From: Octopus sinensis
Lineage: Eukaryota
Direction: 5' to 3'
NCBI RefSeq assembly: GCF_006345805.1
Contig: NC_042999.1
Span: forward strand, 156,054,001 to 156,118,000
DNA: 64,000 nucleotides
Positions within the stretch are counted from its first letter, which is position 1. Each line of letters starts with the position of its first letter. This document shows, piece by piece, positions 31,301 through 32,996 of this stretch. The notes under the pieces were generated by a model. The model worked only from the letters and a program-made list of their open reading frames with translations, searched no databases and was not told the DNA's origin. The translations under genes and the position numbers were made by a program.

Positions 31301-32242
31301 AGTATTGATAAGGCAGTGAGCTGGCAGAATTGTTACGGTGCCAGAAGAAATGCATATTGGTATTTCTTTTGTCATTATGTTCTGAGTTCAAATGCTACTG
31401 TTGTCTTTCATCCTTTCAGGGTCGATAAAGAATCAGTTGAGCATGGGGCCCAATGTAATCCACTTGCACCCACCCCTACAATTGCTGGCCTTGTGCCAAA
31501 ATTTGAACCCAACATTAAAGTATTGATACAGGACACAACTTTGAACCATATTGCCCCATGGTCCCTGTATAGTGTTAGATGGACTAATGTTTGAAATAGA
31601 AATGGACAATAGTACCCTGTGGTACCTATGTAAAGTTAGATGGGCTGATAGTATCTTGTGGTACCTACCTAGCCACAGACAAAACACAGTACTGGTAACG
31701 AGATGCTAATTTCCCAGTTGGATATCTCTGCCTCTATCATCTAAGTCTTTCACTCTCTCTCTCTCTCTCTCTTTCTCTCCCTCTCTCCCCTCTCCCTCTC
31801 TCCCCTCTCTCTCTTTCTCTCTCTCCCTCCCTCCCCTCTCTCTCTCCCTCTCTCTTATAACATTCATAAAACAAGATAAAAGTGAGTTTCTGACATTCAA
31901 GATAAAACAAAGGTAAAATATGATAAGGCAGGACTCTCCATCCAAGACAGAACCTGTCTTATCATATGTTACAAATGTTCGTAACTGATTTTCTTTTTAA
32001 CTGACATGCACCATCAACAGTTTCATTAAACTCTAGTTTGGTTTCTCTCAGATACACCTTAACCCATTTCTTATTATATTTCTGTTGAAATATAATATGC
32101 CTTACGGAGATGTACTTGCATAGCAAGTGATTTGATCTGAGATCGTGTGCTGGAACGAAAACAATTGCAGCGTGGAAGGTGTTTGTAAGCCATTTAAAAA
32201 ACACACAAAAGCCGTTCGATTCACTTCAACATTTAAGTTTAA

Positions 32243-32293
32243 TTTGTCAAAATATTTTCGTCGCTATAAGACCGCGACCTGTTCACTGACAAA
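32243..32293 (-). ncRNA. Hammerhead variant with a G3-C8 core
   Basis: UUUGUCA-GUGAACA-G-GUCGC-(9 nt)-GCGAC-GAA-AAUAUU-U-UGACAAA. Confidence 0.65.
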
Positions 32294-32996
32294 TATTTTG
32301 ACAAATTAAACTTAAATGTTGAAGTGAATCGAACGGCTTTTGTGTGTTTCTTAAATGGCTTACAAACACCTTCCATGCTGCAATTGTATAATATGCCTTT
32401 TTTCTATTTATTAGTTTTGAAAAGCTGTGAAGAAGTTCCACACACTAGTGGTGGAGGGAACCTGTAGAAGAAGTAGACCCAGGAAGACATGGGAAGAGAT
32501 GGTACAGCATGATCTTTGAATGTTGGGCCTCACAGAGGCAATGACAAGTGGCCAAGACCTTTGGCAATGTGTTGTGCTTGAGAAGACCTGCCATGCCAAG
32601 TGAAATCGTAGCCATGGCTGATCCCAGTGCTAGTTGACTGGCATCTGTGCCGGTGGCACATAAAAAGCACTGTCTGAGTGCATGGTCAATGCTGGTGTCA
32701 CATCAATGGCACCTGTACTGGTGGCACTTTAAAAGCACCCACTACACTCTCGGAGTGGTTGGTGTTAGGAAGGGCATCCAGCTGTAGAAACCATGCCAAA
32801 GCAGATCAGAACCTGGTGAAGCTCCCTAGCTTACCAGTTTTCAGTCAAACCGTCCAACCCATGCCAGCATGGAAAGTAGACATTAAACGATGACGATGAT
32901 GATGATGAATGAAGAATTTAGTATCATTATTAAATTGGTGTTTGGAACATAAATCAATATGAAAATTTAAAGAAAGGTTTTTGTATTTAGCTGACT

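What the first reader, a model, noticed from the sequence alone, without database searches (positions are those of the whole stretch)
32091..32399. TSD-flanked 283-bp hairpin element with a G3-C8 hammerhead across its loop
Seen: 97-bp inverted arms (32161-32257 and 32291-32387, two mismatches) and a 13-bp direct repeat TATAATATGCCTT at 32091-32103 and 32387-32399. Across the loop on the minus strand lies a well-paired hammerhead with core GUGAACA instead of CUGANGA and a UUU triplet. Inference: a young insertion of inverted Penelope-type termini. The long hairpin would compete with the ribozyme fold and form dsRNA, a potential A-to-I editing or siRNA substrate.
Basis: partly seen in the sequence, partly recalled or inferred. 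Interest (0 to 1): 0.72.

Follow-up and report, generated by a model that had tools for sequence, protein, structure and literature searches.

The report
Swapped-core hammerhead in Penelope retroelement fragment
This hairpin is one of thousands of short, often back-to-back copies of the end of a Penelope-like jumping gene, whose hammerhead RNA motif has two paired core letters swapped across the whole family; whether it cuts is untested, and this particular copy is predicted to be folded out of action.

Summary
Observation confirmed: 97-nt arms, 13-bp target duplication, minus-strand hammerhead with G3-C8.

The insertion itself is ordinary. It is the terminal repeat (pLTR) of a Neptune/Nematis-type Penelope-like element, copied twice head to head. 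ORF-bearing partners (RT plus GIY-YIG) carry the same core. Inverted copies make up 16 of 25 and 23 of 40 sampled loci.

G3-C8 is family-wide: 5,277 exact hits against 511 with another letter at 3 or 8. Two sister families in this genome (51-59% protein identity) carry C3-G8 and U3-A8, with compensatory stem changes. In the papers I could read, G3-C8 appears only as a laboratory mutant; Lünse 2017 was unavailable. This scan noted a G3-C8 core once before, in a protist.

In 50 of 52 inverted loci one arm starts at a short site and one at a long site about 57 nt on; never long with long. Short copies often begin with an untemplated G, likely a cap. Almost all read through the cleavage site, so templates were likely uncut.

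This copy's hammerhead is predicted sequestered (14.4 kcal/mol). Editing or siRNA production is not shown. Cleavage is untested.

The parts
32091..32103 (+). Target-site duplication, left copy; its last TT match the element's terminal AA (2-nt overlap at the long priming site)
32104..32293 (-). Long copy of the pLTR, from hammerhead stem I to the family's long 3' end; lacks the family's first ~17 nt (the likely transcription start)
32104..32160 (-). 57-nt 'tail' between the short and long 3' ends of the family; present on this arm only
   Evidence: homologous tails in two sister families
32104..32193 (-). First 30 codons of the element's RT-endonuclease ORF (ATG at 32193), cut off by the long end
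   Evidence: the same frame runs on into the ORF at the pLTR-ORF junction of L136
32161..32257 (-). Part of the long copy that pairs with the inverted arm
32243..32293 (-). Type I minimal hammerhead: 7-bp stem I, core GUGAACA plus extra G, 5-bp stem II, 2-bp palindromic stem III, U17; predicted cut between 32250 and 32249
   Evidence: cleavage not tested
32281..32286 (-). Swapped tertiary pair, G3 (32286) and C8 (32281)
32291..32387 (+). Short inverted copy of the pLTR, starting at the family's short 3' end and stopping 5-8 nt past the hammerhead cleavage site; joined to the long copy over a TTT overlap
32387..32399 (+). Target-site duplication, right copy; shares 1 nt with the inverted arm

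Best explanation
This is a back-to-back double copy of the terminal repeat of a Penelope-like retroelement whose whole family carries a G3-C8 hammerhead core, likely made in one insertion event from uncut RNA and predicted to be inert as a ribozyme at this locus. Steps. (1) Shown: the unit is the pLTR of an element with an RT + GIY-YIG ORF. (2) Inferred: a capped RNA starts inside the pLTR about 17-20 nt upstream of the hammerhead. (3) Inferred: the endonuclease makes two nicks 13 nt apart. One nicked strand primes reverse transcription at the long site, 91 nt into the ORF; the other primes at the short site 57 nt upstream. (4) Shown: both copies run through the cleavage site. Inferred: the template was uncut and the two cDNA ends were joined over a 3-nt overlap. 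(5) Predicted: any read-through transcript forms a 97-bp helix that takes away stems I and III. (6) Inferred from covariation: in normal solo or full-length copies G3-C8 keeps the 3-8 pair and gives a weak, probably dimer- or protein-assisted ribozyme that is not needed to make short insertions.
For: Partner element: a 1042-aa open frame with the RT motif YVDD, a CxxxCxxC linker and GIY-C..C-YIG..H..H; the pLTR follows the ORF in 6 of 7 family loci fetched and appears inverted upstream in 5 of 7. All 11 hammerheads found in these loci are G3-C8. Genome counts: G3-C8 5,277; G3 with other 8, 324; other 3, 187, with no C3-G8 among the first 100 listed; control patterns 0. In 74 of 84 parsed motifs 73 are G3-C8 while loop II takes at least five recurring forms. 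Sister families: C3-G8 in 10 of 11 parsed (17 found; 2,822 genome hits) and U3-A8 in 14 of 15 parsed (20 found), with stem I and II letters changed on both sides; protein identity 51-59%. End pairing: one long and one shorter end in 28 of 29 inverted loci and 22 of 23; none long with long. 5' ends cluster at reference positions 1-10. A purine replaces the templated pyrimidine before the start in 558 hits, G in 87 of the first 100 listed, against 608 with the templated pyrimidine. Arms that begin at the cleavage site: 13 hits against 55 at a control position, plus 17 stem-I joins, beside over 5,000 that contain the core. PMC11167929 (text parts 1-2 read) reports two internal RT start sites bounding the tail, partial rescue by C3G/G8C, protein-assisted cleavage, and uncut RNA as the main substrate.
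Against: No cleavage assay. Conservation within a young repeat family reflects copying of a few source elements, so only the three-family comparison and the loop II changes bear on selection, and three families are few independent events. The sister family has lost A9 (C9 in 10 of 11 parsed), which hints that catalysis may be relaxed in this clade. G3.G8 mismatches are unexpectedly common (45 of the first 100 non-C8 hits) and scatter across the tree. Pfam found no family in the partner ORF and only a weak RVT_1 match in the sister (E 0.002); the motifs were read by eye, and 1 of 120 listed homologues carries PF01541. Unconstrained co-folding of two cores did not give a stem III dimer. The first 13 inverted loci were chosen for a full long arm, so only their second arm is informative. 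Some loci are duplicates of one insertion (L214, L219, L223, L249; L235, L236) and were not dropped. The untemplated G could be the last letter of a very short spliced exon, since the start sits at a 3'-splice-site-like sequence. One RNA versus two RNAs as template is not resolved.
Confidence: 0.8

Rival explanations
1. The G3-C8 motif is a catalytically dead relic, kept as a fold for protein binding or because it overlaps promoter signals; the 3-8 covariation reflects structure, not cutting.
For: Copies that start at the cut site are no more frequent than at a control site (13 vs 55). The sister family has C9. G3.G8 copies are common. In PMC11167929 hammerhead mutants did not affect insertion in vitro. 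PMC8495972 says G8C lowers the rate 1e5-fold and C3G restores it only partly (passage). The motif lies 20-35 nt downstream of the likely transcription start, where Penelope promoters have elements (PMC2377424, passages).
Against: All three families keep a Watson-Crick 3-8 pair, U4-G5-A6, G10.1-C11.1, GAAA and a UH triplet. That is the catalytic set, and the 3-8 pair forms in the active conformation (established knowledge; PMC3884650 passages).
Confidence: 0.3
2. This copy matters to the host as a double-stranded RNA that is edited or diced.
For: A 97-bp near-perfect helix is predicted at -167 kcal/mol, with 66 adenosines in the arms and an A.C mismatch. Family sequence is present in four runs guessed to be RNA.
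Against: The copy lacks the family's likely start site. No host exon was recognised in the ORF list shown (output partly cut; small exons could be missed). Roughly 60% of sampled family loci are such hairpins, so nothing singles this one out.
Confidence: 0.1
3. The hairpin arose after insertion, by fold-back, template switching or recombination between two separate insertions, not by priming at two sites in one event.
For: Junctions use short overlaps, some through stem I or the stem III palindrome. Arms of most loci differ at several positions.
Against: One 13-bp duplication encloses both arms here. The outer end of the second arm falls at the same short site in most loci (140-158 in 23 of 29). 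The same long/short pattern shows in sister-family loci (3 of 3; window 10061-10374). Several inverted pairs share rare letters in both arms (L206, L207).
Confidence: 0.1
4. It is a MITE or fold-back DNA transposon, or a microRNA gene, and the hammerhead likeness is chance.
For: Inverted arms, a target duplication and Rfam miRNA-model hits.
Against: Arms are unequal and vary from locus to locus, many copies have no inverted arm, duplication length varies, and the unit is continuous with an RT ORF. Rfam scores are about half the gathering thresholds.
Confidence: 0.01

Closest known systems
EN+ Penelope-like elements, Neptune/Nematis type (PMC8557442; introduction section and passages read)
   Same: RT followed by GIY-YIG with CCHH, Cys-rich linker, pLTR holding a hammerhead, inverted 5'-truncated copy, tail at one end only, bias for (TA)n targets (18 of 25 unbiased loci).
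   Different: Tail is about 57 nt, against the 30-40 bp described. The long/short pairing is near-obligate here (50 of 52), where the paper says 'often'. Short cap-like copies dominate. Neptune versus Nematis was not resolved.
Minimal hammerheads of Penelope elements (PMC4209133; text parts 1-2 of 4 and supplement file 2 parts 1-2 of 3 read; supplement file 1 not searchable)
   Same: Type I fold, extra nucleotide between 9 and 10.1, G10.1-C11.1, tiny palindromic stem III, U17 common, C3-G8 and U3-A8 variants.
   Different: None of the 56 representatives in Fig. S3 has G3-C8. That paper's descriptors fixed the core, so it could not have found one.
PAc Poseidon element of Anolis (PMC11167929; text parts 1-2 of 4 read)
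   Same: Two internal RT start sites inside the ORF that bound the tail; AT-rich nick sites; uncut RNA as template; both strands primed.
   Different: G3-C8 there is an engineered double mutant with partial activity. The ORF there starts inside the hammerhead, here about 55 nt after the cut site. That paper saw no strand difference in start-site use and does not report one-site-per-strand pairing in the parts read.
Natural hammerhead core variants (PMC3088659; passages read)
   Same: Natural covariation of the 3-8 pair.
   Different: The passage names U3-A8 only.
Twin priming of LINE-1 (recalled, not from a call)
   Same: Second nicked strand primes internally and yields a 5' inversion.
   Different: In LINE-1 the two cDNAs cover different parts of the RNA; here they overlap, so the region is duplicated as a hairpin.
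Non-LTR retrozymes (bioRxiv 10.64898/2026.07.22.740005; part 1 of 5 read)
   Same: Non-coding, hammerhead-bearing derivatives of Penelope pLTRs.
   Different: Retrozymes are head-to-tail arrays; this family is dispersed, solo or head-to-head.

Membership tests
EN+ Penelope-like element | Single ORF with RT followed by a GIY-YIG endonuclease | tested here: met
   Partner L134, 1042-aa frame, motifs read by eye; Pfam gave no hit on it; homologues carry PF00078 or PF01541 in 2 of 120 rows. The window copy holds only the first 30 codons.
EN+ Penelope-like element | CCHH motif with two Cys between GIY and YIG | tested here: met
   Visible in the L134-L140 translations.
EN+ Penelope-like element | pLTR with hammerhead downstream of the ORF and running into the ORF start | tested here: met
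   (L136 junction).
EN+ Penelope-like element | Inverted 5'-truncated copy, tail at one end, variable target duplication | tested here: met
EN+ Penelope-like element | Complete tandem pLTR-ORF-pLTR copy | tested here: inconclusive
   Only partial 5' pLTRs without the hammerhead core were found (L136, L140).
EN+ Penelope-like element | Spliceosomal intron in the pLTR | tested here: inconclusive
   Branch-point and acceptor-like sequence just before the unit; no spliced form seen.
EN+ Penelope-like element | RT groups with PLE RTs in a tree | not tested
   No named PLE references were available from the tools used.
Neptune/Nematis clades | Cys-rich linker between RT and EN; (TA)n bias | tested here: met
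   CxxxCxxC linker; TA runs at 18 of 25 unbiased loci. The two clades were not told apart.
Hammerhead ribozyme | Canonical C3-G8 core letters | tested here: not met
   G3-C8 in 5,277 hits; no C3-G8 among the first 100 of 187 non-G3 hits.
Hammerhead ribozyme | Watson-Crick pair between positions 3 and 8; U4 G5 A6, A9, G12 A13 A14, A15.1-U16.1, H17 | tested here: met
   three-way covariation across families.
Hammerhead ribozyme | Stems I and II can form | tested here: met
   Formed in the isolated motif and in a solo copy; not in the window copy's full context.
Hammerhead ribozyme | Stable stem III or an active dimer | tested here: inconclusive
   2-bp stem III with palindrome; free co-folding gave a stem I/II swap; the constrained run crashed.
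Hammerhead ribozyme | Self-cleavage 3' of position 17 | not testable with these tools
   No excess of copies starting at the cut site is indirect only.
MITE / fold-back DNA transposon | Equal terminal inverted repeats with fixed ends and fixed duplication length | tested here: not met
Non-LTR retrozyme | Head-to-tail array of hammerhead units | tested here: not met
   Same-strand core pairs in only 2 of the loci held, 1.4 and 5.5 kb apart.

The most novel reading that the evidence does not exclude
One Penelope clade in one genome has fixed all three Watson-Crick versions of the hammerhead 3-8 pair, including an active natural G3-C8 ribozyme with C8 at the general-acid position. Its insertions record an obligatory mechanism in which an RT dimer primes one nicked strand at each of two sites on a single capped, uncut RNA, which explains at once the Penelope tail, the inverted termini and the flood of solo pLTRs.
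Probability: 0.33. Interest if true: 0.72.

Novelty: new variant of a known kind. Interest (0 to 1): 0.48.

Why it matters
The locus is ordinary, but the family behind it is useful twice over. First, G3-C8 is the standard laboratory rescue mutant for hammerheads. A natural family of over 5,000 copies, beside sisters with C3-G8 and U3-A8, gives a matched natural series for asking whether Penelope hammerheads are under selection to cut, which is an open question. Descriptor searches fixed on CUGA miss such families. Second, how Penelope elements make tails and inverted ends is unresolved in vivo. The near-obligate long/short pairing and cap-like 5' G give countable genomic predictions that match, and go beyond, the one in vitro study read.

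Tried and rejected
Rfam scan: no hammerhead family matched; miRNA-model hits are generic. Sequencing-run search: no RNA holder listed. Four runs guessed to be RNA cover the repeat but have no cover over the unique flanks, and their contigs pool many copies; no conclusion on expression or editing. A>G at 32187 and G>A at 32237 appear in the RNA-guess table and not in the DNA table, but there is no matched individual and the tables may be cut. Empty allele: no joint from 32103 to 32400 among the 15 of 106 joints shown; run X7 has no cover on the left flank; X1 may be the assembly's source and is left out. Idea that G3.G8 copies are an evolutionary intermediate: rejected, 36 such copies fall in all three subfamilies and scatter in the tree, and one inverted pair has G8 in one arm only. 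Idea that copies come from cut RNA: no support (the control pattern is AT-rich and includes small insertions, so it is rough). Idea that the inverted arm completes an alternative hammerhead: only 4 nt lie between its would-be H17 and G3 (sequence). Same-template test for the two arms: inconclusive. PDB search of the ORF: 0 hits. Host gene: none recognised (output partly cut). Lünse, Weinberg and Breaker 2017 (PMC5785218), the paper most likely to list a natural G3-C8 class, is not held; I saw only its title in a reference list. Literature searches that found no natural G3-C8 report.

Full report
Observation. The arms, the two mismatches and the 13-bp duplication are as described. The duplication occurs only here in the window, and chance is about 1e-4 even over 1,600 registers. 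The minus strand holds a type I hammerhead: stem I 32293-32287 with 32249-32243, G3 32286, C8 32281, A9, an extra G, a 5-bp stem II, GAAA, a 2-bp palindromic stem III and U17 at 32250. Rfam has no hammerhead match, only sub-threshold miRNA-model hits.

The family. A search with the non-duplicated strand gave 40 near-full-length matches at 98-100% identity, from 783 candidates of which 40 were scored. A pattern with positions 3, 7 and 8 left open gave 1,125 hits, 99 of the first 100 listed being G3-C8. Looser patterns gave 5,277 G3-C8, 324 G3 with another letter at 8, and 187 with another letter at 3; none of the first 100 of the last group is C3-G8, and reversed-pattern controls gave 0. The usual unit is about 208 nt and begins about 17 nt upstream of stem I; the window copy has lost that start.

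The autonomous partner. Following longer copies upstream led to RT and endonuclease frames. L134 has a 1042-aa open frame with YVDD, a CxxxCxxC linker and a GIY-YIG domain with CCHH (motifs read by eye, Pfam silent). Of 7 family loci fetched, 6 carry the unit downstream of the ORF and 5 carry an inverted copy upstream; all 11 hammerheads found in them are G3-C8. In L136 the unit runs straight into the ORF, so its last 90 nt are the first 30 codons. By the features in PMC8557442 (introduction and passages) this is an EN+ Penelope-like element of Neptune/Nematis type; no tree with named references was made. The closest named homologue is an Octopus vulgaris protein at 58%.

Covariation. Loop II takes at least five recurring forms across three subfamilies, while 73 of 74 parsed cores (84 found) stay G3-C8. 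A sister family has C3-G8 with C9 (10 of 11 parsed of 17; 2,822 genome hits). A third has U3-A8 (14 of 15 parsed of 20; linked to its ORF in L167). The three proteins are 51-59% identical. Stem letters change on both sides between families: stem I UCA/UGA, CCA/UGG, CUA/UAG; stem II GUCGC/GCGAC, GUCAC/GUGAC, GUUGC/GCAAC; stem III A-U or G-C. The grabbing patterns fixed some stem I letters, so within-family stem I conservation is not independent evidence. Three families are few events, but each keeps a Watson-Crick 3-8 pair.

How the hairpin arose. After dropping 6 duplicate loci, 29 of 54 were inverted, 16 of 25 in the part not chosen for length. In a second sample taken in genome order, 23 of 40 were inverted, duplicates not dropped. 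In 28 of 29 and 22 of 23 one arm ends at the long site (198-210) and the other at a shorter one, mostly 140-158. L215 holds two such insertions; L043 and L224 are unresolved; no insertion has two long ends. The 57 nt between the sites is the tail. Sister families have homologous tails and the same pattern. PMC11167929 (parts 1-2 read) showed in vitro that two internal RT start sites bound the tail and that both strands are primed. I infer that each nicked strand takes one site. In the window the primers overlap the RNA by 2 nt and 1 nt, and the cDNAs are joined over TTT. Whether one RNA serves both is open.

Template. 5' ends cluster in the first 10 positions. Before the AGATG start a purine stands in 558 hits, G in 87 of the first 100 listed; the templated pyrimidine stands in 608, of which 359 run on upstream. 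An untemplated G in AT-rich flanks fits a reverse-transcribed cap (established for other retroelements; recalled), so short copies likely derive from an internal promoter, as known for Drosophila Penelope (PMC2377424, passages). A very short spliced exon is the alternative. Arms that begin at the cut site gave 13 hits against 55 at a rough control site, plus 17 stem-I joins. Both arms of the window copy cross the cut site. Templates were therefore mostly uncut, as for the Anolis element.

This copy. Forcing stems I and II costs 14.4 kcal/mol (P about 7e-11), and P is about 3e-6 already when stem I's second strand emerges; a solo copy forms both stems in its best fold. The copy differs from the majority of 29 close relatives at 1 of 187 positions, plus one change in the short arm. 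Its subfamily is the middle one in age. Contigs of runs X2 and X4, from other studies and organism labels, run without mismatch 25-27 letters from the left flank into the element; this is below the tool's 31-letter rule, so sharing is likely, not proven. Editing and siRNA production are not shown.

Against my reading. No activity data exist. The sister's C9, the frequent scattered G3.G8 copies (45 of the first 100; tree) and the lack of cut-site copies fit a fold kept without much cutting. PMC8495972 (passage) and PMC11167929 describe only partial rescue by the swap. Free co-folding gave no stem III dimer.

Novelty. Inverted termini, tails, minimal hammerheads and U17 are known (PMC4209133, text parts 1-2 and supplement file 2 parts 1-2). 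None of its 56 representatives has G3-C8; PMC3088659 (passages) names U3-A8 as the natural covariation; PMC3884650 (passages) mentions G3-C8 as an engineered variant. Ten searches found no natural report, but Lünse 2017 and supplement file 1 of PMC4209133 could not be read and may hold one. This scan noted a G3-C8 core with an extra letter in a protist element (e1-7369241; unchecked); a look-up by sequence found nothing. Verdict: new variant of a known kind, interest 0.48.

Noticed in passing
window 10061-10374: Inverted insertion of the third (U3-A8) Penelope family, again one long and one short arm.
   Followed up: partly
window 28845-28914 and 29316-29411: Two opposite-strand fragments of the third family's pLTR, 82-86% identical to L167.
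   Followed up: no
L141-L144, L169 (for example L169:6506): Sister Penelope family with 2,822 hits whose hammerhead has C3-G8 but C in place of the conserved A9; A9 in 4 of the first 100 listed.
   Followed up: partly
L161:+9380 and three minus-strand copies about 363 bp apart; L166:+3035: Another hammerhead-like motif with U3-A8 in a tandem array, retrozyme-like.
   Followed up: no
L190-L205, L250-L269: C8-to-G changes are more frequent than C8-to-U among non-C8 hits (45 vs 38 of 100) and recur in all subfamilies; unexplained.
   Followed up: partly
L008, L050, L053, L062, upstream of the unit: Microsatellite-rich 3' UTR ending in a branch-point, pyrimidine and AG sequence exactly at the start of the short unit; could be an intron acceptor, an initiator or both.
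   Followed up: partly
window 31906-31979: Smaller hairpin, 27-nt arms, 81% complementary, 20-nt loop, about 110 bp left of the insertion.
   Followed up: no
window 12725-14329 (-), 48274-49684 (-), 62854-63998 (+): Broken LINE-type RT or endonuclease frames of three different kinds, named by eye from the translations.
   Followed up: no
L101:5621-7099 (reverse of the oriented locus): A 493-aa frame of a different Penelope-like family, with RT motif YRDD and a GIY-YIG-like end, nested beside a copy of this family.
   Followed up: no
L007, L019, L225: Copies of this family sit directly next to pLTRs of the sister families, suggesting shared TA-rich targets.
   Followed up: no
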